Positions 1 through 16,452 of a stretch of DNA of 16,452 bases are shown piece after piece. Source of the DNA: a virus. Its lineage: Duplodnaviria > Heunggongvirae > Uroviricota > Caudoviricetes. The translations under genes were made by a program, and so were the position numbers. Under the pieces are notes generated by a model that saw only the letters and a program-made list of their open reading frames with translations, was not told where the DNA came from and did not search any database. Where the stretch lies: the IMG/VR virus record IMGVR_UViG_2737471821_000008; one strand, given 5' to 3'. Position 1 is the stretch's first letter. Each line of letters starts with the position of its first letter.

Positions 1-405
1 ATGGATCAGGTCGTTGTTTTTCAAAAGATGTTTGAGCAAGTGAGAAAAGAGCAAAACTTCTCCTGGTTTTATTCAGAATTAAAACATCACCGTATTGCAC
101 ATTACATTTATTATCTGGCTACGGATAACATCAGAATTATTACTCACGATGATACGGTTTTGTTATTAAGAGGAACCAGGAACCTGTTAAAAGTTAGTAC
201 GACCAAGAACCCTGCTAAAATAAAAGAGGCCGCATTGCTTCATATTTGCGGAAAATCTACATTTCGGGAATACTGTTCAACACTGGCAGGCGCGGGCGTT
301 TTCCGGTGGGTTACTGATGTTAATCATAACAAACGCAGTTACTACGCCATTGATAATACGCTTTTATATATTGAAGATGTAGAAAATAATAAACCATTAA
401 TCTAG
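1..405 (+). CDS. ycgX: DUF1398-family protein YcgX (chromosomal flank outside the prophage)
   Basis: Complete 134-aa ORF with ATG at position 1. I recognise the sequence as YcgX, and it sits next to iraM as in E. coli K-12. AT-rich. Confidence 0.6.
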   Translation: MDQVVVFQKMFEQVRKEQNFSWFYSELKHHRIAHYIYYLATDNIRIITHDDTVLLLRGTRNLLKVSTTKNPAKIKEAALLHICGKSTFREYCSTLAGAGVFRWVTDVNHNKRSYYAIDNTLLYIEDVENNKPLI

Positions 406-616
406 CTAAAGTTGGATACTTAAGAAATGCTTCATAATTCAGTAAGGCATTAGCATAATGGAAATAAAAGTGCAGAGACTATCTCTATGGATGATTAATA
501 CTGTCTTTTTATTGTCACCCATAAATAATCACCAGACTAATACTATCAACTTGATATTTGAAATGTGATCACTTGACTTTTGATACGTTATTTTATAACG
601 GTTAACATATTTATAA

Positions 617-662
617 AAACAACGGCCGTGCCACACGTCCGTTTCAATACTTAACGCACATG
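617..662 (+). repeat. Direct repeat copy 1 of an icd 3'UTR/terminator-like ~45-bp sequence
   Basis: By hand alignment 38 of 45 positions match 1481..1525 (aaacaacggNcgtg...ccgtttcaataNttaacNcacatg). No icd coding sequence follows this copy. Confidence 0.6.
621..643. terminator. Imperfect hairpin within repeat copy 1 (possible ycgX terminator)
   Basis: Arms AACGG/CCGTT plus CGTG/CACG with one mismatch and a CCA loop, followed by TTTCAATA. Weaker than copy 2. Confidence 0.35.
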
Positions 663-1104
663 TATTTTGGTTTAGTCATCATCCGGTTATATGTATTTTA
701 GCCAGGAACAGGTTAAATCATTCCTATATAACTCAAAAATTGAAACCTTATTCTCATGTCATGCTTATATTCATTATTATCGTTATATAAAAAGGCAACC
801 ATAATGTTTAGCAAATTGGCACAAAGTAGCATAAAGGCTATGTTTTAATTACAGGATGTTCAGTCATTTGAATGTATAACATTATAGCTAAACAAATCTA
901 AAACGAAGTCAATAATTTATTGCTTTCACAAAATCTCATTTTGTTTAACATCCATTGAGATTCCTTGCTTTAAATTTTATTTTATATAAGCCATCATTTT
1001 AATTAATTTATTTTTTTGAGGGGGGGGTAATATACTCATATGCAAAATCAAGAAATAAACATCCTAATGAACCATATTAAATACCGTGGGATAAGACATA
1101 ACAA

Positions 1105-1428
1105 ATGAAGTGGATAGTAATTGACACGGTAATTCAACCTACATGTGGTATATCTTTTTCAGCCATATGGGGTAATATGAAAATGATCATCTGGTATCAA
1201 TCTACTATATTTCTCCCTCCTGGCAGTATATTTACACCGGTTAAGTCTGGTATTATCCTTAAGGATAAAGAATATCCTATTACTATTTATCACATCGCAC
1301 CATTCAACAAGGATTTATGGAGTTTACTCAAAAGCAGTCAAGAGTGTCCTCCAGGAGAAAGCAAAATAACAAATAAATGTTTACATAATAGTTGCATTAT
1401 AAAAATATGCCCATATGGGCTCAAGTAA
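1105..1428 (+). CDS. iraM: Anti-adaptor protein IraM (stabilises RpoS by inhibiting RssB)
   Basis: 107-aa ORF with ATG start, [22 protein letters not shown]..., recognised as IraM. Lies between ycgX and the icd fragment as in K-12. AT-rich, about 38% GC on a sampled line. Confidence 0.7.
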
Positions 1429-1480
1429 TGGGCTTCATATAAATATGCTCGATATGCTATTAATAATATCCACATAAATA

Positions 1481-1525
1481 AAACAACGGGCGTGTTATAC
1501 GCCCGTTTCAATATTTAACACATGG
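1481..1525 (+). repeat. Direct repeat copy 2 (authentic icd 3'UTR and terminator)
   Basis: Immediately 3' of the icd stop codon (1531..1533 on the - strand). Pairs with 617..662. Confidence 0.6.
1485..1507. terminator. Bidirectional rho-independent terminator (icd terminator; also downstream of iraM)
   Basis: Stem AACGGGCGT / ACGCCCGTT with loop GTTAT. On the - strand it is followed by GTTTTATTTAT (U-tract), on the + strand by TTCAATATTT. Confidence 0.6.
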
Positions 1526-1530
1526 AGAGA

Positions 1531-1695
1531 TTACATGTTTTCGATGATCGCTTCACCAAACTCTGAACATTTCAGCAGCTTAGCGCCTTCCATCAGACGT
1601 TCGAAGTCATAAGTTACGGTCTTGGCATTGATTGCGCCTTCCATACCTTTAACAATCAGGTCAGCCGCTTCAGTCCAACCCATATGGCGCAGCAT
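1531..1695 (-). pseudogene. icdC: Displaced 3' fragment of isocitrate dehydrogenase gene (icdC-type), prophage attachment junction
   Basis: The - strand translates to [54 protein letters not shown], the Icd C-terminus. icd similarity ends abruptly at about 1695. No start codon or upstream icd sequence. Confidence 0.85.
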
Positions 1696-1928
1696 TAGTT
1701 AGATGACTAAATCATAACTATTTGACATAGCAACATAATTTTACTAATTTGCATATAACTCATTAGCTCTTAGCATTTCTATAACTCATTGATTATAAAC
1801 ATGTGTTTTTGAGTTTTGATAACCATTTTTAGCATAAAAATAGCTGTTAACATTTGCAGAAATTAAGATCAGAGAAAATTTTTACCCTGTAGGGTATTAC
1901 GTCTTAAATGTGACTTTAATAAACAATT

Positions 1929-2762
1929 TTATTTCTGTAATCGGTTTATATTAACGTAAAGCATCTCGATTAGTTCTTTTGCATTTTTACTATAGTGTAA
2001 TTCTCTATGACAATTCGGACAAAGGGCAACACAGTTATCTGTTGTATCAGCACCACCTGAAGACAGGGGAATTACATGATGCACTTCCAAATATGGGTTT
2101 CCATCATTTAAATAAAACGGAGCATTTTTACCACAGTTTTCACATATACCTTTACTTTGCTGTAAAATCCAAGCTTTTACCATCGGGTCTCGAACATAAA
2201 CTTTTTGTAGTCTTTCTACCTCAACTGGTTTCCTGGAGCCCTCGGGTTGACTCAACGTTTTCTTAATTAATTTACTAACCCTCATATTCAGAAGCGATTC
2301 ATCATCTGTAGGCTGTGAAAGCTCTGATAGTTCTCCACGTATTATAGACGCCCAAAAACTGTCACTATAAATTCCTGGAACATTTATCAATATTCGTTTC
2401 GTTCTATTGCCGGAAGGAATTTCCTTTCTCCCCGTACGACTAAAATAAGCCTGATAACCACACATCTTCAAGCGTATATCGCGGGGGCTATTACCAATCA
2501 AAGTAAAATATTCACCAGGATGGATTTTTCTTTCATCCAAAGAATGCATATGTTTTCTGACTGATGATGACGCCAGATATACTACGACTTGGGATACACC
2601 AGAATCAACCAACCGTTCAATGATATAATCAAGAGCGATATTGTAATCTTTGTTTCTGTCACCCGGCCCCCACGACTCAAGGATTAGACCATAAACACCA
2701 TCCTCTTCACCTATCGAGCACTCAGCTTTCAGTTCAATTCCATTATTATCAAAAACATGCAT
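1929..2762 (-). CDS. mcrA: 5-methylcytosine-specific restriction endonuclease McrA (HNH family)
   Basis: 277-aa ORF with ATG start. C-terminal HNH motif ...CENCGKNAPFYLNDGNPYLEVHHVIPLSSGGADTTDNCVALCPNCHRELH. Recognised as McrA. GC about 45% on sampled lines. Confidence 0.9.
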   Translation of the reverse strand: MHVFDNNGIELKAECSIGEEDGVYGLILESWGPGDRNKDYNIALDYIIERLVDSGVSQVVVYLASSSVRKHMHSLDERKIHPGEYFTLIGNSPRDIRLKMCGYQAYFSRTGRKEIPSGNRTKRILINVPGIYSDSFWASIIRGELSELSQPTDDESLLNMRVSKLIKKTLSQPEGSRKPVEVERLQKVYVRDPMVKAWILQQSKGICENCGKNAPFYLNDGNPYLEVHHVIPLSSGGADTTDNCVALCPNCHRELHYSKNAKELIEMLYVNINRLQK

Positions 2763-2868
2763 AATATTAATCTTTAATCAATTTTTCACGACAATACTAC
2801 TTTTATTGATAAAATTGCAACAAGTTGCTGTTGTTTTACTTTCTTTTGTACACAAAGTGTCTTTAACT

Positions 2869-3423
2869 TTATTTATCCTCTGCAGGAAACCTCTTATACA
2901 AAGTTGACACACCAACATCATAGATAATCGCCACCTTCTGGCGAGGAACTCCTGATGCAATTAATCGTCCGGCCTGTGCCCATTGTTCTGGTGTAAGTTT
3001 GGGACGACGTCCACCAATTCGCCCCTGTGCGCGAGCAGCTTCCAGTCCAGCTTTTGTTCGTTCAACAATCAGTTCACGCTCCATTTCAGCCAGGGCACCC
3101 ATCACATGAAAGAAAAAGCGTCCCATTGGTGTGCTGGTATCAATTGAATCCGTCAGACTACGAAAGTTGATGCCTCGTTCGCGCAACTCCTCCACCAACA
3201 CGACAAGATGCCGCATACTACGCCCCAGCCGATCCAGCTTCCAGACAACCAGAGTGTCACCTGCCGATAATGTCCTGAGCAGTTTTTTCAGTCCCGGCCT
3301 TTCGGACTTTGTGCCGCTTATCTTGTCTTCAAAAATCAGCTCGCATCCTGCACAGTTCAGCGCATTACGTTGTAGATCTGTGTTCTGGTCATTTGTTGAT
3401 ACGCGTACATAGCCAATAAGCAT
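2869..3423 (-). CDS. pinE: Serine DNA invertase Pin (Gin/Hin/Cin family)
   Basis: Start placed at the internal ATG giving MLIGYVRVSTNDQNTDLQRNAL... (184 aa), the typical invertase N-terminus with catalytic Ser in RVST. The ORF track begins 12 codons upstream at 3459. Confidence 0.9.
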   Translation of the reverse strand: MLIGYVRVSTNDQNTDLQRNALNCAGCELIFEDKISGTKSERPGLKKLLRTLSAGDTLVVWKLDRLGRSMRHLVVLVEELRERGINFRSLTDSIDTSTPMGRFFFHVMGALAEMERELIVERTKAGLEAARAQGRIGGRRPKLTPEQWAQAGRLIASGVPRQKVAIIYDVGVSTLYKRFPAEDK

Positions 3424-3477
3424 GGTAGCTCCCCCTGACAAAAGCAGGAATGATGCCATTTGCTCGTTATTTCTGCA

Positions 3478-7301: not shown

Positions 7302-7602
7302 GCGTTATCGCACTCCACAGATCATCAAAAGAAATCATTACCGGTCCGTCACGACGCCAGAGGGTGATACTGTTACCCAGTTCATTAATCCCGGTGCGGC
7401 GGATATCCAGATCAATACGGGACACCACGCCGTCATCAATCATCCATTGCAGGCATTCGCGGATACCCGCCCCGGCAGCGCCCAGAGCAAGGCTGGAGAC
7501 TTCTTTCTGAAACCCCTTAAGCTGACGCTGCATACCTTTAAGCGGGCCGGACAGCCTGTCAACGGCGGTGATGATGGCTTTCAGCTGAAAATTATCAGCC
7601 AT
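7288..7602 (-). CDS. Short chimeric ORF: tape-measure-like N-terminus joined to an unrelated C-terminus (probable deletion product)
   Basis: Strong SD (GAGGAG, 7-nt spacer) and ATG. N-terminus MADNFQLKAIITAVDRLSGPLKG fits the usual tape-measure start, but the ORF is only 104 aa and its end overlaps the baseplate-J start. Confidence 0.4.
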   Translation of the reverse strand: MADNFQLKAIITAVDRLSGPLKGMQRQLKGFQKEVSSLALGAAGAGIRECLQWMIDDGVVSRIDLDIRRTGINELGNSITLWRRDGPVMISFDDLWSAITHGGQ

Positions 7603-8010
7603 GCTTCATCTCCTCATTTATACGGACGGCCTCTGCCTCCAGATCAGCAAAGTGGGAAATAGCCGTCCGGCGAAGTTCAAGGGGGTTTAATTTCCAGAAC
7701 CACGCGACATTGTAGAATCGCTTCCGGAGGTCTCTTCCGTCTCCAAGCCGGTAAAAAAACGCATTACAATCATGCCTGCCTTGAAAATATCCAGCTTCGT
7801 CATCTGCGCTGCAGACGAGCGCGGGATCCCGGCCAGAAGCGGGATATATTTCAGCGCTACCTGACTGTCCATTTTCATACCACCATCAGGTGAAACAGAG
7901 AAAGGGAACCCCAGCGCCTCAATCTCGTCATACGTAGGCTCACGTATTTCCAGCACATGCAGTGTTTCTTTGTGGGCGATGATCGGTTTTTTAAGTACAA
8001 GCTCAATCAC
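7595..8010 (-). CDS. Tail assembly chaperone, long form made by -1 programmed frameshift (G/GT or E/E' type)
   Basis: From the slippery site the -1 frame stays open for 52 codons (YRLGDGRDLRKRF…EEMKHG*) and stops at 7595..7597, just inside the next gene start. This is the standard chaperone to tape-measure layout. Confidence 0.45.
7687..8010 (-). CDS. Tail assembly chaperone, short form
   Basis: 107-aa ORF. Its first codon is GTG, overlapping the tube gene stop (GTGA). Sits between the tube and tape-measure positions. Confidence 0.5.
   Translation of the reverse strand: MIELVLKKPIIAHKETLHVLEIREPTYDEIEALGFPFSVSPDGGMKMDSQVALKYIPLLAGIPRSSAAQMTKLDIFKAGMIVMRFFTGLETEETSGSDSTMSRGSGN
7753..7759 (-). 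other. Slippery heptamer U-UUU-UUU for -1 ribosomal frameshifting
   Basis: Coding strand CGT TTT TTT ACC (R F F T) in the chaperone 0-frame, 22 codons before its stop. Confidence 0.45.
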
Positions 8011-10789: not shown

Positions 10790-11110
10790 TCACCAGAGAT
10801 CATCCGGTTCGCGCAGACCGTCTTCACGGCCTTTACGCAGGAAGCCCACAAACGCCTCTTTATGCTCGGTGGCCAGTTTATTTTGCGCTCCACCAGCCGG
10901 ACGTTTCAGCTCAAGCAGCTCTTTTTCAAGGTCGCTTTTGAGATTTTCCAGCTCGCTGAGTTTCCCGTTCAGGGTTTCCACCTGCCCGGCAAGCTTGCCT
11001 TTTTCCTGCTCAATCGCATCCACGCGCTTGTCGTTCTTTGCTTTGAAGTCGTCAAACTTCTGCTGCAGCTCCTGCGCGACCTGTTCGACATCTTTAATAT
11101 CAACCGCCAT
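10790..11110 (-). pseudogene. Major capsid protein, N-terminal fragment only (HK97-type delta domain)
   Basis: Strong SD (AGGAGA) and ATG right after the protease gene. 106 aa of coiled coil (…VETLNGKLSELENLKSDLEKELLELK…EHKEAFVGFLRKG) then a premature stop. No capsid body is encoded downstream in any frame. Confidence 0.55.
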
Positions 11111-13187: not shown

Positions 13188-14921
13188 TTAAAGCGAGCGG
13201 ATCCCATAGGACTCAATGTGGTCAGACAGCGTGTCTTCTTTCTCGTACAGCATGGCTCTGCCAACCGCCATAATCAGCGCAACTGCACCGTCAATTTTGT
13301 TTTCCGCCTGCTCTTTGACGGGTTTCACCACATCATCGTTACCCGGAATGGTTTTGCCGACCACATTGCCGATACACCAGGTCATGATGGGATTGCCATC
13401 ATGATGAAAGCGCCCCGATTCAATTGCCGCTTCCAGCTCTTTCATCGGGTCGGACATGTTGGTGTAGTTCTGAATGATAGTGACGGGATTCAGGTCTTCA
13501 TCAGCAAGGTCATGTGACAACCCGGTCGCCCCGAAGGGGTCGATGGGTGACTCACTGACCGGGCTGATTTTGTTCGCCGCTTTGGCCTCCTCGAGGATGT
13601 AGCGATAATCCACCTCCGCACCATCGGTAACGGTCAGAACGCCCATTTCCACCCATTTCTGAAAGCGTTCGGCTGTCCGGCGATCTTCATTTTTCTCGAC
13701 GCTGTACACCGTGTCATACGGTACCCAGAAGCGCGGAGCCACACTGTAGTAATGCGTTTTACCGTCAATCTCGCGGGTATAAAGTCGCGCCATGCTGTTC
13801 ATATCCAGCTTACGCGCCAGGTCAAAGGCCAGAATGCACGGTTGCCCCTCGAACTGCTCAAGGGTCAGTGATTTATCCTCGCAGCTCTGCCAGCTCACCA
13901 GGTTGAAATACGCCGAACGCGCCGACACCCAGATATTGAGGTGTTTTGTTTTAAAGACGTTTGCCAGACGGGCGTTATTTTTCGCACGCTGCTGCTGACT
14001 TAACAAAAATTCGCGATAAACCGACACGCCAATATTCGGGTTAGCTTTTTCCAGCACCTGCGGGTCGGTCCAGTCATCGCCTTCGTCAACGGTATAGATG
14101 ATCCCGAACAGTTCATCGTTGGGTACCGAACCGTTGAGCATCTCGATAACTTCCCGCCGCTTGTCGTAGCACGGCCCCTCAATGTTGTACCCGGCGGTGG
14201 TGATGGCCCACATCAGTGGCTGACGTCGCGCGCCCATCCCGGTAAGCATCGTGGTATAAAGCGCATCGGTGGCGTGCTCGTGATATTCATCCACCACCGC
14301 ACAGTGGGGTGATGAACCATCACCGGGGTTACCGATCAGCGGTTCAAACCGCGCGCCATCCTCCGGACGGTTCATGTTTGAGGCGTTAACCTCAATCCCG
14401 AACGCTTCCGTCAGCATGGGTGTGCGTTTACACATCAGTCGCGCCGGGCGAAAGACTTCCCACGCCTGTTTCTCTGTCGTGGCACCGGAATACACTTCCG
14501 CGCCAAACTCGTTATCACAGGCAAAACAATACAGGGCAACACCGGCAGAGATTGCCGATTTGCCGTTCTTACGGGGGATTTCGGTATACACCTCCCTGAA
14601 GCGGCGCAGCCGGGAGCCTTTATTGACCCAGCCAAACGCACAGCAGATCACAAAGAGCTGCCACGGTTCCAGCGTGATGGGCATCCTCTTGAATGCCCAC
14701 TCCCCCTTGGTGTGTGGCAACAGCTGAATAAATTTCGCGGCCCGTTCAGCCAGGTCCTTGTCGAAGCGGTAACGAAACGACTTACTTTTTTCCGCCATCA
14801 GGTCATCAAGATGGCGCTGGCAGGCCTGAATCACAAACTGGCAGGCCACAATCTTTCCGCGCACGACATCACGGGCATACTGATTGGCAGCATTTACGTT
14901 GGGGTAAGATTTCCGGCTCAT
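13188..14921 (-). CDS. Terminase large subunit
   Basis: 577-aa ORF with ATG overlapping the TerS stop (ATGA). N-terminal ATPase region (…[18 protein letters not shown]…AVVDEYHEH…) and C-terminal nuclease domain. Confidence 0.9.
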
Positions 14922-15412
14922 GATTCGATGATTTTCAGAAACGGGTTAGTGGCTTTCTTCTGCCCCGCCAGGCCAATCAGACGCTGGCGGCTGCTGGGGT
15001 CGAGTCCGAGCATTGCCCCCGTGCTGCTCATCTCGGACTCCTGTTCTTTCTTGGCGGTCAGCTCCGGATTTTTGACCATGCCACCCATTGCACCGGTGAT
15101 GGTGTTGCCCTGTCTGGCAATATTTTTCACGGCACGCCGCCAGAACTCGTAGGCCACGCACCACCGCTCAAGCACCGCGAGGTCAGTCACGCACAGCAGG
15201 CCCTGACCGCAGAGTTCTTTGGTTGTCAGTTGCCACATGATCGTGGCGAGAGGGAGATCTTCTTCAGCGAACCACTCCGGTGGCTCAACACCTTTGATGG
15301 GCGTAAAAACAGGTTCATCTTTATTCAGGGCTCGCTTGCCGGGGTTTCCGGCCAGCGCCTTGCGCGCCGTTGGCTTGGGGCGACGCCCGGAACGCCCCGC
15401 CGTTCCAGCCAT
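14918..15412 (-). CDS. Terminase small subunit (P27 family)
   Basis: …[34 protein letters not shown]… is the P27-family signature. I chose the ATG at 15412 (SD AGGAG, 8-nt spacer) rather than the track's GTG at 15421. Confidence 0.7.
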
Positions 15413-15462
15413 ATGCGGCACTCCTGGTTAAATTTCATTTTTCGCGGGTATAAAAAAACGAT

Positions 15463-15511
15463 GGGGCGGGCAGTCCGGAAGACGTCAGGTCACAGGGATT
15501 TGACCCGCCCC
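15463..15511. other. GC-rich inverted repeat in the HNH-TerS intergenic region (candidate cos / packaging-initiation region)
   Basis: GGGGCGGG at 15463..15470 and CCCGCCCC at 15504..15511 flank a 33-bp spacer containing the palindrome GACGTC. A T7 run follows on the - strand. Confidence 0.3.
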
Positions 15512-15537
15512 TCCCCTCTGGCAGTGGGAACTGGTTC

Positions 15538-15888
15538 TTACTTAATCCGTTCACGGGCCGTCTTCGCCTTATGACACGGCCAGCACAGACTCTGCAGATT
15601 ACAGTCGGCATCAGTGCCGCCATGCGCTTTAGGGATGATGTGGTCAACAGTTTTCGCCTCACGCACCACACCAGCGCGCAGACATAACTGACATAAACCT
15701 TTGTCACGTTTCAGCACACGCGCGCGGATAACGTCCCACTTCGAACCGTAGCCGCGCTGATGACGGGATTGTCCTGGCTTGTATTGCTTCCAGCCTTCGC
15801 TTTTGTGGCTTTCGCAATAACCTGACGGGTCAGTGGTGGTACGGCGGCACCCGCGAACACGGCAGGCTTTTGGAGTTCGTGGTGGCAT
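15538..15888 (-). CDS. HNH endonuclease (packaging-associated)
   Basis: 116-aa ORF with ATG start, Cys-rich with the motif …DHIIPKAHGGTDADCNLQSLCWPCH…. Immediately upstream of TerS as in HK97-like packaging modules. Confidence 0.85.
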   Translation of the reverse strand: MPPRTPKACRVRGCRRTTTDPSGYCESHKSEGWKQYKPGQSRHQRGYGSKWDVIRARVLKRDKGLCQLCLRAGVVREAKTVDHIIPKAHGGTDADCNLQSLCWPCHKAKTARERIK

Positions 15889-15919
15889 TGAAGAAAACTC
15901 TTTGTAATAAGCATAAAAA

Positions 15920-15936
15920 CCCCATATTGAATGGGG
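15920..15936 (-). terminator. Rho-independent terminator downstream of the 168-aa gene
   Basis: On the - strand, stem ATGGGG/CCCCAT with a 5-nt loop followed by TTTTTAT, beginning 10 nt after the stop codon at 15946..15948. Confidence 0.5.
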
Positions 15937-15945
15937 CTTGATGAA

Positions 15946-16452
15946 TTACTGTCCTAAAGCACTTTTTGCCAATATTGAAGCAATTGAAGCAAACGTCGGA
16001 TTTTCCAATAGCTTTTGCCAAAGGCTTTTAACCTCTGGATCATTGCAATGCTCTATAGCATCATGTAGTTGTTGAATGGTTATATTCTTTGTGATCGAAT
16101 TGTCATTACCGGCTTGAAAATCACCACCAGCATTAATAGCACCGTTAAACGTCAAATGGGTCGTAATCTGCTTCGGCTTCTCTTTTACATCCAATGCCTT
16201 CACTATCAATACCGCCAAATGTGAGTAGCCAGGGCAACCAGCCTCGAGACTAATTTGTACCTCGTAATCAAGCACTTCAAATAGTCTTTCCCTGTCGACC
16301 ATTTTTTGCACAATGATATCGCCGATATTAAATGGACATAAGTCACTTTCAATAAGAATATACAATCGACCTTTAGATGAGTCACGTTGACCATAATAGG
16401 TGGATGAATTAAAGGTAAAAGTATCTGGATAGAAAAATTGATCTGGTCGCAT
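15946..16452 (-). CDS. Hypothetical 168-aa protein (AT-rich moron upstream of the packaging module)
   Basis: Complete ORF, ATG at the window edge. MRPDQFFYPDTFTFNSSTYYGQRDSSKGRLYILIESDLCPFNIGD… has no motif I recognise and no hydrophobic helices. GC about 35-38% on sampled lines. Confidence 0.55.
   Translation of the reverse strand: MRPDQFFYPDTFTFNSSTYYGQRDSSKGRLYILIESDLCPFNIGDIIVQKMVDRERLFEVLDYEVQISLEAGCPGYSHLAVLIVKALDVKEKPKQITTHLTFNGAINAGGDFQAGNDNSITKNITIQQLHDAIEHCNDPEVKSLWQKLLENPTFASIASILAKSALGQ

What the first reader, a model, noticed from the sequence alone, without database searches (positions are those of the whole stretch)
15915..16452. AT-rich 168-aa gene of unknown function with its own terminator, inserted just upstream of the HNH-TerS-TerL packaging genes
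The ORF 15946..16452 (- strand) has about 35-38% GC on the 60-bp lines I counted, against roughly 50-58% in the adjacent packaging and tail genes. It ends in a GC hairpin plus T5 before the HNH gene begins. This is classic moron architecture at a known cargo hotspot (between the lysis/late-regulation region and terminase). The protein has no catalytic motif I can recognise, no transmembrane helix and no resemblance to structural proteins. Prophage morons at this position commonly encode defence, superinfection exclusion or lysogenic-conversion functions. Its promoter, and any partner gene, lie beyond the window edge.
Basis: partly seen in the sequence, partly recalled or inferred. Interest (0 to 1): 0.7.

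Follow-up and report, generated by a model that had tools for sequence, protein, structure and literature searches.

The report
Prophage cargo gene with RHIM-like relatives
A small AT-rich gene slotted between the lysis and DNA-packaging genes of a decayed E. coli prophage is a genuine stand-alone cargo gene, and its wider, uncharacterised family carries a short motif resembling the amyloid "RHIM" switch of animal cell-death signalling, which suggests, without proving, a role in conflict between phages.

Summary
A complete 168-aa ORF lies at 15946-16452 (-). It has 38.7% GC against 54-60% in the adjacent HNH/TerS/TerL genes, and a strong terminator hairpin follows it. The moron reading is supported. 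In E. coli e14/SfV-like prophages the Rz1-to-HNH gap is polymorphic: empty, or filled by at least five unrelated cassettes. This gene occupies it in 29 of 5,426 genomes, always intact. Relatives sit alone, often on the opposite strand, in other prophages and in the accessory slot of capsid-forming PICI satellites. The protein matches phrog_5789 (unknown function) and nothing in Pfam, NCBIfam or PADLOC. It has an N-terminal small beta-barrel, a segment that is highly conserved yet has no predicted structure, and three C-terminal helices. The C-terminal module recurs behind different N-terminal domains. Its core is phi-Q-phi-G-x-x-N. Pfam RHIM hits 11 of 61 relatives, one above threshold, and a motif profile finds only RIPK1 RHIM fibril peptides in the whole PDB. 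The window protein carries a derived FQAG variant that fails both tests on its own. My best guess is a single-protein, assembly-triggered anti-phage effector. No experiment supports this.

The parts
15946..16452 (-). Complete CDS of 168 aa (stop codon at 15946-15948), a member of phrog_5789. The ATG is the last codon of the window.
   Evidence: The gene is intact and 98.4-99.6% identical in 29 of 5,426 E. coli genomes. It is under purifying selection: against L005 there are 63 synonymous and 64 non-synonymous codon differences, over 107 synonymous and 397 non-synonymous sites.
16192..16428 (-). N-terminal small beta-barrel domain, about aa 9-87 (six strands).
16078..16182 (-). Conserved segment with no predicted monomer structure, aa 91-125 (ITTHLTFNGAINAGGDFQAGNDNSITKNITI).
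   Evidence: pLDDT is below 50 with no secondary structure, even with a 78-sequence alignment. Yet Q113, G115 and N118 are invariant in all 78 sequences.
16099..16119 (-). Motif core F112-Q-A-G-N-D-N118. This is a derived form of the family's phi-Q-phi-G-x-x-N (RHIM-like) core.
   Evidence: Tetrad counts in A6 are VQIG 37, FQAG 19 and VQVG 11. Pfam RHIM hits 11 of 61 relatives, and P0098 scores 24.9 bits against a cut-off of 20. The family motif profile A7 hits only RIPK1 RHIM peptides in the PDB (E 0.04). The window subfamily alone is negative in both tests.
15955..16077 (-). C-terminal three-helix module, aa 126-166 (helices 126-134, 139-149 and 152-166), ending in a helix rich in small residues.
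   Evidence: AF2 pLDDT is 62-77. The module is shared with proteins that have unrelated N-terminal domains. In most relatives the last helix is hydrophobic (Kyte-Doolittle 1.5-2.1, e.g. TVASIIGAGASALLGLL). In the window protein it is only 0.83.
15912..15939 (-). Intrinsic terminator of the cassette: a 9-bp stem, a 5-nt loop and a T5 run.
   Evidence: dG -15.8 kcal/mol, z -5.2. It is identical in L001 and L002.
15889..15945 (-). Downstream edge of the variable cargo slot. Homology among prophages with different cargo resumes at the HNH ribosome-binding site and ATG (15888).
   Evidence: Alignment A3 of occupied, differently occupied and empty sites. Megablast matches of SfV, SfII and ST64B phages stop at query position ~489-519, which is window ~15888-15918.
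13188..15888 (-). Context genes: HNH endonuclease (15538-15888), P27-family TerS (14918-15421) and TerL (13188-14921).
   Evidence: Pfam and RefSeq annotation of L001.

Best explanation
The gene is an independently transcribed, horizontally mobile cargo gene (a moron). It sits in the variable slot between the spanin genes and the HNH-TerS-TerL packaging genes of an e14/SfV-like prophage. Its product is neither a lysis nor a packaging component. It belongs to an uncharacterised, modular protein superfamily found only as single-gene cargo in prophages, capsid-forming PICI satellites and small islands. The superfamily's architecture has three parts. The first is a variable N-terminal domain, here a small beta-barrel, which I infer to be the sensor or binding module. 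The second is an invariant phi-Q-phi-G-x-x-N segment that is unstructured in the monomer and resembles the RHIM amyloid core. The third is a short helical domain ending in a small-residue or hydrophobic helix. The most likely mode of action is a single-protein anti-phage or competition effector. A trigger bound by the N-domain would drive self-assembly through the RHIM-like segment. That would release the C-terminal helix to act on the membrane, giving abortive infection or exclusion. This parallels HET-S and Bab but with reversed domain order, and everything is on one polypeptide. What is shown: the cassette nature, the hotspot polymorphism, the architecture, the motif conservation and the RHIM-likeness of relatives. 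What is inferred: assembly, membrane action, the trigger and the defence phenotype. The window protein carries a derived FQAG core and a weaker terminal helix, so it may work differently from its canonical relatives.
For: Cassette and hotspot: the same slot is empty or holds unrelated alternative cargo. The gene has its own terminator. GC is 0.387 against about 0.55, and low GC is retained in Serratia. The gene lies on the opposite strand to its neighbours in a Serratia prophage, a podovirus-like contig and cf-PICI-like elements. It is intact in a prophage that has lost its capsid and tape-measure genes. It is under purifying selection. Architecture: two AF2 models agree. An exhaustive HMM search shows the C-terminal module behind unrelated N-domains such as a Zn ribbon, wHTH-like domains and a GNAT fusion. 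RHIM-likeness: Q113, G115 and N118 are invariant in 78 sequences. Pfam RHIM is the top family, hitting 11 of 61 members where about 0.02 would be expected by chance, and P0098 scores 24.9 bits against a cut-off of 20. In the reciprocal test, motif profile A7 retrieves only RIPK1 RHIM fibril chains 8ib0 and 9m6m out of 177,635 PDB sequences. Defence context: the Pseudomonas homologue sits in P2-like prophage cargo next to a HEPN-like gene. Precedent exists for amyloid-controlled abortive infection in E. coli prophage hotspots (Bab/Agp, bioRxiv 10.1101/2024.11.07.622273).
Against: There is no experimental or expression data. PADLOC has no match. The window protein itself has no Pfam RHIM hit even at E<=10. 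A motif profile built from its own subfamily does not find RIPK1. Its core is FQAG, with Ala where RHIM has I, V, L or C. Its terminal helix is only weakly hydrophobic. The RIPK1 hit is borderline (E 0.04). The profile of the whole C-terminal module finds no RHIM protein. The motif is internal and no neighbouring gene shares it, unlike every characterised amyloid-signalling pair. A conserved segment that looks disordered in a monomer model could equally be an obligate-oligomer element or a linear binding motif. Promoter scans upstream are no better than chance. The only candidate is an extended -10 (TGTGATAAT), read by eye in L001.
Confidence: 0.4

Rival explanations
1. The protein is an assembly poison or helper-interference factor. 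The N-terminal barrel, whose fold resembles phage neck/stopper (head-closure) proteins, would bind portal-connector complexes of competing phages, or of helper phages in the case of cf-PICI homologues, and block head-tail joining. The conserved segment would serve only for oligomerisation. This is still a competition function, but it involves no membrane action and no cell death.
Confidence: 0.15
2. The protein is a counter-defence decoy. Like herpesvirus RHIM proteins (M45, ICP6), the phage-borne FQAG variant would co-assemble with, and cap or divert, a canonical VQ(I/V)G protein encoded by a satellite or by the host, neutralising it.
For: In the places sampled, all four FQAG contexts are full phages (window/e14-like, L005, L006, L003/L004). 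The canonical barrel-containing subfamily is mostly in cf-PICI-like satellites (L013-15, L018, L020-23, L026-29). The two subfamilies share the same N-domain (P0029, E 2.8e-23 over positions 4-167). The variant has a weaker core and a weaker terminal helix.
Against: The sample is very small, and one canonical member lies in a P2-like prophage. The gene is retained intact in a prophage that can no longer make particles, which fits a benefit to the host better than a counter-defence used during lytic growth. No RHIM-like host system is known in E. coli (Bab/Agp uses BASS11).
Confidence: 0.1
3. The gene is a lysogenic-conversion or host-physiology factor unrelated to phage conflict. Examples would be a regulator or a stress factor, like the GrlR-like gene that occupies the same slot in other strains.
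For: The same slot carries a GrlR-family gene in many genomes. Morons at this position include non-defence genes such as lambda bor (my own knowledge).
Against: The family is confined to phages, satellites and islands across Enterobacterales, Pseudomonas and Vibrio. It has no DNA-binding or enzymatic signature. Swapping of N-domains on a constant C-terminal module is typical of conflict systems (inference).
Confidence: 0.15
4. The protein is an accessory lysis or late-function protein, such as a lysis-timing or membrane factor. It would be expressed from the late operon, because in this prophage it lies directly after the spanins and is co-oriented with them.
For: The gene sits immediately downstream of the lysis cassettes in the window-type prophages and in L005. 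A Q-antiterminated late transcript would read through it (knowledge of lambdoid late transcription).
Against: It is absent from most related prophages that have the same lysis genes, including an empty junction. It is found far from lysis genes and on the opposite strand elsewhere. It has no transmembrane segment, signal peptide or lipobox.
Confidence: 0.07

Closest known systems
Classic prophage morons (e.g. lambda bor between Rz and cos; the HK97/HK022 morons of Juhala and Hendrix). This comparison rests on my own knowledge.
   Same: A single gene inserted between genes that are adjacent in related phages. It has deviating (AT-rich) composition, its own terminator, and the same genomic neighbourhood between the lysis genes and the packaging genes.
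   Different: The promoter is not demonstrated. The product is unrelated to any characterised moron product.
Bab/Agp amyloid-signalling abortive-infection system of E. coli (BASS11; bioRxiv 10.1101/2024.11.07.622273)
   Same: It is encoded in E. coli prophage hotspots. It combines a short amyloid-type motif rich in N, Q and G with a small helical domain containing a Gly-bearing hydrophobic helix. Toxicity and defence there depend on beta-breaker-sensitive residues of the motif.
   Different: Bab/Agp is a two-gene system whose motif is shared between the C-terminus of the effector and the N-terminus of a TPR-GreA/B-PIN sensor. Here there is one gene and the motif is internal. No neighbour carries the motif. 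The domain order is reversed, with the hydrophobic helix at the C-terminus. The motif type is RHIM-like, not BASS11.
BASS3 / Bell-NLR pairs (RHIM-like bacterial amyloid signalling; Dyrka et al., bioRxiv 10.1101/2020.01.06.895854)
   Same: It has a RHIM-like phi-Q-phi-G core in a prokaryotic protein, with Pfam RHIM hits in family members.
   Different: BASS motifs were reported as terminal motifs in Bell/NLR gene pairs of multicellular Actinobacteria and Cyanobacteria. This family is in mobile elements of Gammaproteobacteria, with no NLR partner and no Bell domain. G-phi-Q-phi-G is only sometimes present, and the window has D-F-Q-A-G.
Metazoan RHIM (RIPK1/RIPK3; Pfam PF12721) and viral RHIM decoys (M45, ICP6)
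   Same: The pattern x-phi-Q-phi-G-N-x-N aligns with the RIPK1 fibril core NSSGIQIGNHNYMD. The segment is unstructured in the monomer.
   Different: The similarity is confined to about 14 residues and is borderline (E 0.04). The window protein itself fails the Pfam model. No kinase or death-fold context is present. Amyloid formation is untested.
HepS, a single-protein prophage-encoded abortive-infection system of Gifsy-1 (PMC13043305)
   Same: It is a prophage-borne single gene that would both sense and execute. It sets a precedent for sensing the structural proteins of competing phages.
   Different: HepS is a HEPN tRNA nuclease. The two proteins share no sequence or fold relationship.

Membership tests
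Moron (autonomous prophage cargo cassette) | Inserted between two genes that are adjacent in related phages | tested here: met
   The empty junction in L008 has the lysC stop 26 bp from the HNH start. Alternative unrelated cargo occupies the slot in L009-L012. Homology resumes at the HNH ATG.
Moron (autonomous prophage cargo cassette) | Nucleotide composition differs from the flanking phage genes | tested here: met
   GC is 0.387 and GC3 0.337, against 0.54-0.60 and 0.55-0.68 for the neighbours. The homologue in Serratia is also AT-rich relative to its neighbours.
Moron (autonomous prophage cargo cassette) | Own terminator | tested here: met
   The hairpin at 15939..15917 is followed by T5, with dG -15.8 and z -5.2. 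In L006 a GC-rich terminator sits directly after the stop codon.
Moron (autonomous prophage cargo cassette) | Own promoter, and expression from the repressed prophage | tested here: inconclusive
   Consensus scans are no better than shuffled sequence. The only candidate is an extended -10 (TGTGATAAT) in the 203-bp spacer of L001, which lies outside the window. Opposite-strand placement in other elements implies a promoter. Expression itself cannot be tested here.
PHROG phrog_5789 | Full-length HMM match | tested here: met
   E 1.5e-77, 260 bits, residues 1-168 against profile positions 1-167 of 168. The category is 'unknown function'.
RHIM (Pfam PF12721) | HMM score at or above the gathering threshold (20 bits) on the protein itself | tested here: not met
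   The window protein has no hit even at E<=10. Among relatives, P0098 scores 24.9 bits, P0034 18.5, P0067 15.6 and P0056 14.1, and 11 of 61 have a hit.
RHIM (Pfam PF12721) | Core tetrad (I/V)-Q-(I/V/L/C)-G followed by x-x-N | tested here: not met
   The window has F-Q-A-G-N-D-N: Q, G and N are kept but both hydrophobic positions are atypical. Canonical VQIG, VQVG or VQLG is present in most relatives. The subfamily-only profile A8 does not retrieve RIPK1, whereas the broad-family profile A7 does.
RHIM (Pfam PF12721) | Forms cross-beta (amyloid) assemblies | not testable with these tools
   The only evidence is indirect: the segment is invariant yet has pLDDT below 50 in monomer models.
Two-component amyloid signalling (Bell/BASS-NLR; Bab/Agp) | The same motif is present in the products of two adjacent genes | tested here: not met
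   A six-frame motif scan of the window and all 19 loci held at that point (L001-L019) found the motif only in the family gene itself, always 56-58 aa from its C-terminus. No partner ORF or Rfam RNA lies in the upstream spacer.
Two-component amyloid signalling (Bell/BASS-NLR; Bab/Agp) | Bell/HeLo-type helical domain with an N-terminal hydrophobic helix and a C-terminal motif | tested here: not met
   The order is reversed: the motif comes first, then three helices with the hydrophobic helix last. No HeLo or Bell family appears among the Pfam hits listed.
Known anti-phage defence systems (PADLOC-DB v2.0.0) | HMM match to a catalogued defence protein | tested here: not met
   0 families at E<=10. 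The alternative cargo genes of the same slot are also negative.
Phage head-closure / stopper proteins (Phage_HCP, SPP1 gp16-like) | Sequence or profile homology, and a significant fold match | tested here: not met
Lysis cassette component (holin, endolysin, spanin) | Transmembrane, lipoprotein or muralytic signature, and conserved presence alongside the cassette | tested here: not met
   No transmembrane segment or enzymatic domain. The gene is absent from most prophages that carry the same spanin genes.

The most novel reading that the evidence does not exclude
phrog_5789 and its larger sister group would be a previously unrecognised class of 'all-in-one' amyloid-switch immune or conflict proteins, carried by phages and capsid-forming PICI satellites of Gammaproteobacteria. 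Each would combine a swappable sensor domain, an internal RHIM-like nucleation motif and a C-terminal membrane-active helix. The FQAG variant on full phages, as in this window, could be a derived form that antagonises or evades the canonical VQ(I/V)G form carried by satellites. That would be a bacterial counterpart of the conflict between viral RHIM decoys and host RHIM signalling.
Probability: 0.2. Interest if true: 0.85.

Novelty: new variant of a known kind. Interest (0 to 1): 0.6.

Why it matters
RHIM-type amyloid signalling is known in animals, in their viruses and, as BASS3, in multicellular bacteria. Amyloid-controlled abortive infection has only just been shown in E. coli, with a two-gene system and a different motif. 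A single-gene, RHIM-like family spread across prophages and cf-PICI satellites of enterobacteria, Pseudomonas and Vibrio would have three consequences. It would extend this signalling principle to mobile elements of unicellular bacteria. It would give a minimal, genetically tractable model of about 170 aa for how a sensor domain couples to an amyloid switch. It would also assign a function to the conserved accessory slot of cf-PICIs. Even if the mechanism is wrong, the work defines a polymorphic cargo slot between Rz1 and HNH in e14/SfV-like prophages, with at least six states, that can be mined for new conflict genes.

Tried and rejected
- Pfam, NCBIfam and PADLOC scans of the protein found nothing.
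- PDB sequence searches with the full-family profile A1 and the C-module profile A5 gave only chance hits: designed helical repeats, CsrA and thymidine phosphorylase.
- Foldseek against BFVD and PDB found nothing significant. The afdb50 library was unavailable.
- The giant proteins P0026 and P0097 from the exhaustive search are cadherin-like repeat proteins matching 'DFFGTDTFxY'. I reject them as spurious.
- The unrelated 169-aa gene that occupies the same slot in strain 101EVA is not a homologue.
- The word-indexed protein search with A5 returned mostly truncated fragments.
- A neighbouring partner gene or RNA was looked for and not found.
- Promoter consensus scans were uninformative.
- Literature searches for phrog_5789, for WP_001247186 and for 'RHIM-like' with 'prophage' returned nothing. 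A cf-PICI paper gives no function for this accessory gene.
- The window-subfamily motif profile A8 did not retrieve RHIM proteins. This is a genuine negative for direct membership.
Full report
**1. The observation**

The ORF at 15946..16452 on the minus strand is real and encodes 168 aa. It is complete. It matches phrog_5789 end to end (E 1.5e-77, profile positions 1-167 of 168), and the initiator Met is invariant among homologues. The window stops exactly at the ATG.

The gene has 38.7% GC (GC3 33.7%). The adjacent genes have 55.8% (HNH), 59.5% (TerS) and 54.3% (TerL). The left 2.8 kb of the window is also AT-rich (34%), so the contrast is with the phage structural and packaging block.

Seven bases after the stop codon lies a 9-bp hairpin plus T5 (15939..15917). 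It folds at -15.8 kcal/mol, z = -5.2, and 0 of 200 shuffles fold as well. Pfam confirms HNH, a P27-type TerS and TerL downstream.

**2. What lies beyond the window edge**

Near-identical prophages (98.6% over this region) are present in complete E. coli genomes. In strain SCU-482 (L001) the gene is preceded by 203 bp of AT-rich non-coding DNA. Upstream of that lie the Rz/Rz1 spanins, a GH19 endolysin, two holins and Q.

The same cassette, identical from the spanin 3' end to HNH, occurs in the induced phage vB_EcoM-689R6. That phage has a different endolysin and holin set.

The spacer contains no credible ORF and no Rfam RNA, so there is no partner gene. Consensus promoter scans are uninformative. 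By eye the best candidate is an extended -10, TGTGATAAT, about 90 nt upstream of the ATG.

**3. The slot is a true cargo hotspot**

I searched 5,426 complete E. coli genomes with the Rz1-gene-HNH segment. Both flanks were found in about 1,230 genomes, but the gene in only 28-29. Other genomes have different contents between the same flanks:

- nothing, with the lysC stop 26 bp from the HNH ATG (L008);
- a 106-aa GrlR-family gene (L009);
- a 145-aa unknown gene (L010);
- an unrelated 169-aa unknown gene (L012);
- a two-gene cassette on the opposite strand (L011).

In a multiple alignment, homology is lost at the Rz1 stop and regained exactly at the HNH ribosome-binding site and ATG. This is the defining test for a moron, and it is met.

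**4. The gene moves as a single unit among unrelated elements**

Close family members (48-72% identity) occur in three other settings:

- alone on the opposite strand between tail/ejection genes and a primase in Serratia prophages (L003, L004);
- after a lysis cassette in a lambdoid contig (L005);
- on the opposite strand between TerL and portal in a podovirus-like contig, with a terminator right after the stop codon (L006).

In Serratia the gene is again AT-rich relative to its neighbours.

A larger sister subfamily has the same barrel N-domain. It comprises 115 clusters across Enterobacterales, Pseudomonas, Halomonas and Vibrio, all annotated 'hypothetical' and none with a Pfam domain. In E. 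coli, Salmonella and Klebsiella it occupies one fixed position. That position is the single opposite-strand slot between the replication module (AlpA, Bro-N, DUF927 or D5_N primase, SSB) and the capsid module (MCP, protease, portal, HNH, TerS, TerL) of elements with capsid-forming-PICI architecture. In Pseudomonas it sits in the cargo region of a P2-like prophage next to a HEPN-like gene. In Photobacterium it lies in a small integrase/IS91 island.

**5. The host prophage is defective but the gene is intact**

The window is an e14-family prophage at the icd/mcrA locus. Compared with an intact relative (L019), it has lost 2.1 kb containing most of the major capsid gene, the connector and the head-closure genes. 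It has also lost 5.5 kb containing the tape-measure, DNA-circularisation and baseplate genes.

The 168-aa gene nevertheless keeps every family-invariant residue. All 29 E. coli copies are full length and 98.4-99.6% identical. Against the 62%-identical L005 homologue there are 63 synonymous and 64 non-synonymous codon differences, over 107 synonymous and 397 non-synonymous sites. That crude ratio of about 0.27 indicates purifying selection.

**6. The protein**

Pfam, NCBIfam and PADLOC find nothing. Two AlphaFold2 runs, with 20 and 78 sequences, agree:

- residues 9-87 form a confident six-stranded small barrel (pLDDT 85-92);
- residues 91-119 have pLDDT below 50 and no secondary structure;
- residues 126-166 form three helices (pLDDT 62-77).

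**7. A modular superfamily with a RHIM-like core**

An exhaustive profile search of 1.84 billion representatives found only 79 proteins. Many of them match only profile positions ~90-167. They carry other N-terminal domains instead: a Zn ribbon, wHTH-like domains, extra extensions, and in one case a GNAT fusion. The shared module reads: FNIGSISGxQ-VQVG-NxNxQxxNITI-xELVEKVAKSxDPEAKSLLKKLLEN-STVASIIGAGASALLGLL.

Four observations stand out.

- Q113, G115 and N118 (window numbering) are invariant in 78 aligned sequences from both barrel-containing subfamilies, although AF2 sees no structure there.
- Pfam RHIM (PF12721) is the family most often hit. It hits 11 of 61 members at the aligned position. 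P0098 scores 24.9 bits (E 1.4e-5), above the 20-bit gathering cut-off. For any one Pfam model, about 0.02 chance hits would be expected in 61 proteins.
- Reciprocally, a 26-column profile of the motif (A7) was searched against all 177,635 distinct PDB sequences. It returned exactly two hits at E<=10, both RIPK1 RHIM fibril peptides (8ib0, 9m6m; E 0.04). The alignment pairs sGgqVQVGNnNsQt with NSSGIQIGNHNYMD.
- The last helix is hydrophobic and rich in Gly and Ala in most members (Kyte-Doolittle 1.5-2.1).

**8. Limits for the window protein itself**

Its subfamily has the core D-F-Q-A-G-(N/S)-x-N. It has no Pfam RHIM hit even at E<=10. A profile built only from its subfamily motif does not find RIPK1. 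Its terminal helix is only weakly hydrophobic (0.83; subfamily mean 0.91 against 1.54 for canonical members).

Its link to RHIM is therefore transitive, through clear homology to canonical relatives (for example P0052 and P0054, E ~1e-10 over positions 92-167). The profile of the whole C-terminal module does not retrieve RHIM proteins either. Motif resemblance is not evidence of amyloid formation.

**9. Comparison with known systems**

BASS motifs, including the RHIM-like BASS3, were described as terminal motifs shared by adjacent Bell-effector and NLR genes in multicellular bacteria (bioRxiv 10.1101/2020.01.06.895854). Bab/Agp of E. coli is an amyloid-controlled abortive-infection system found in prophage hotspots. 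It has a helical effector whose N-terminal hydrophobic helix is cupped by four helices, and a C-terminal BASS11 motif (bioRxiv 10.1101/2024.11.07.622273).

The present family differs on every defining feature. It is one gene. No neighbour carries the motif. The motif is internal, always 56-58 aa from the C-terminus. The hydrophobic helix is last rather than first. So it may work like these systems, but it is not a member of them.

**10. Mechanism and alternatives**

The best-supported statement is that this is autonomous cargo, not lysis or packaging machinery. I put confidence in that at about 0.85.

What it does is inferred. The inference rests on four things: N-domains that swap on a constant module; an invariant RHIM-like segment that is unstructured in the monomer; a terminal hydrophobic helix; and exclusive residence in the cargo slots of prophages and satellites. 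Together these suggest a single-protein, assembly-triggered effector in conflict between phages or between phage and satellite (composite confidence 0.4).

The rivals are:

- an assembly-interference factor acting through the neck-like barrel;
- a RHIM-type decoy, since the FQAG form is found on full phages and the canonical form mostly on cf-PICIs, though the sample is small;
- a non-phage lysogenic-conversion factor;
- a late or lysis accessory protein.

An obligate-oligomer beta-structure rather than amyloid would equally explain the conserved but 'disordered' segment.

**11. Verdict**

The gene is a new, uncharacterised cargo family. Its relatives reveal an unreported RHIM-like, single-polypeptide architecture on enterobacterial phages and satellites. 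The idea is interesting and directly testable, but the function is unproven.

Noticed in passing
window 7465-7973 and 10794-10803: Relative to an intact e14-like prophage (L019), the window prophage has two internal deletions. About 5.5 kb is lost (gp46, baseplate V, baseplate assembly, DNA circularisation, tape measure, tail assembly) and replaced by about 500 bp. About 2.1 kb is also lost (most of the major capsid gene, head-tail connector, head closure). ORF 10790-11110 is only the N-terminal 106 aa of the capsid protein. The prophage is therefore defective.
   Followed up: partly
window 1-3459: The left end is the e14 attachment neighbourhood: ycgX (1-405), iraM (1105-1428), McrA, a 5-methylcytosine-specific HNH restriction endonuclease (1929-2762, -), and the PinE DNA invertase (2869-3459, -), followed by invertible tail-fibre segments. 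Two IS200C copies present in L019 are absent here.
   Followed up: partly
window ~15470-15480 (between TerS and HNH): The records of the SfV, SfI, SfII, SfIV and ST64B phage genomes end just past the stop codon of their HNH gene (which maps to window ~15480-15540) and restart with TerS. The cos or genome terminus of this phage family therefore maps to the HNH-TerS intergenic region. HNH and the cargo slot are then the extreme right end of the packaged genome.
   Followed up: no
L008-L012 (E. coli Rz1-HNH junction; equivalent to window 15889 onward): The same slot holds at least five other states: empty, a GrlR-family 106-aa gene (common), a 145-aa unknown, an unrelated 169-aa unknown, and a reverse-strand pair of 219 and 111 aa. 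None matches PADLOC, and only GrlR matches Pfam.
   Followed up: partly
L020-L023, L026-L029, L013-L015, L018: The canonical sister subfamily (VQ[IV]G core, about 170 aa) occupies one fixed opposite-strand accessory slot between SSB/primase and the major capsid gene. The host elements have capsid-forming-PICI architecture, in E. coli, Salmonella and Klebsiella. No function is given for it in the cf-PICI paper I searched.
   Followed up: partly
P0079, P0054, P0040, P0028 (relatives): There are domain-shuffled relatives. One has the barrel and a degenerate C-module fused to a GNAT acetyltransferase (P0079). One has a Zn-ribbon N-domain (P0054). Two have an extra wHTH-like or other N-terminal extension before the barrel (P0040, P0028).
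   Followed up: no
P0056 residues 96-113: The 23-position Pfam model PF17108 ('HET-S', a fungal HET-related short motif) hits the same segment as RHIM in 3 of 61 family members (best E 0.009, below its cut-off).
   Followed up: no
L024/L025 7320-7922: In Pseudomonas the homologue lies directly downstream of, and co-oriented with, a 200-aa protein with a weak HEPN_RiboL-PSP hit. Both sit in the cargo region of a P2-like prophage next to a Dam methyltransferase and an S8 peptidase, which may be a defence islet.
   Followed up: no
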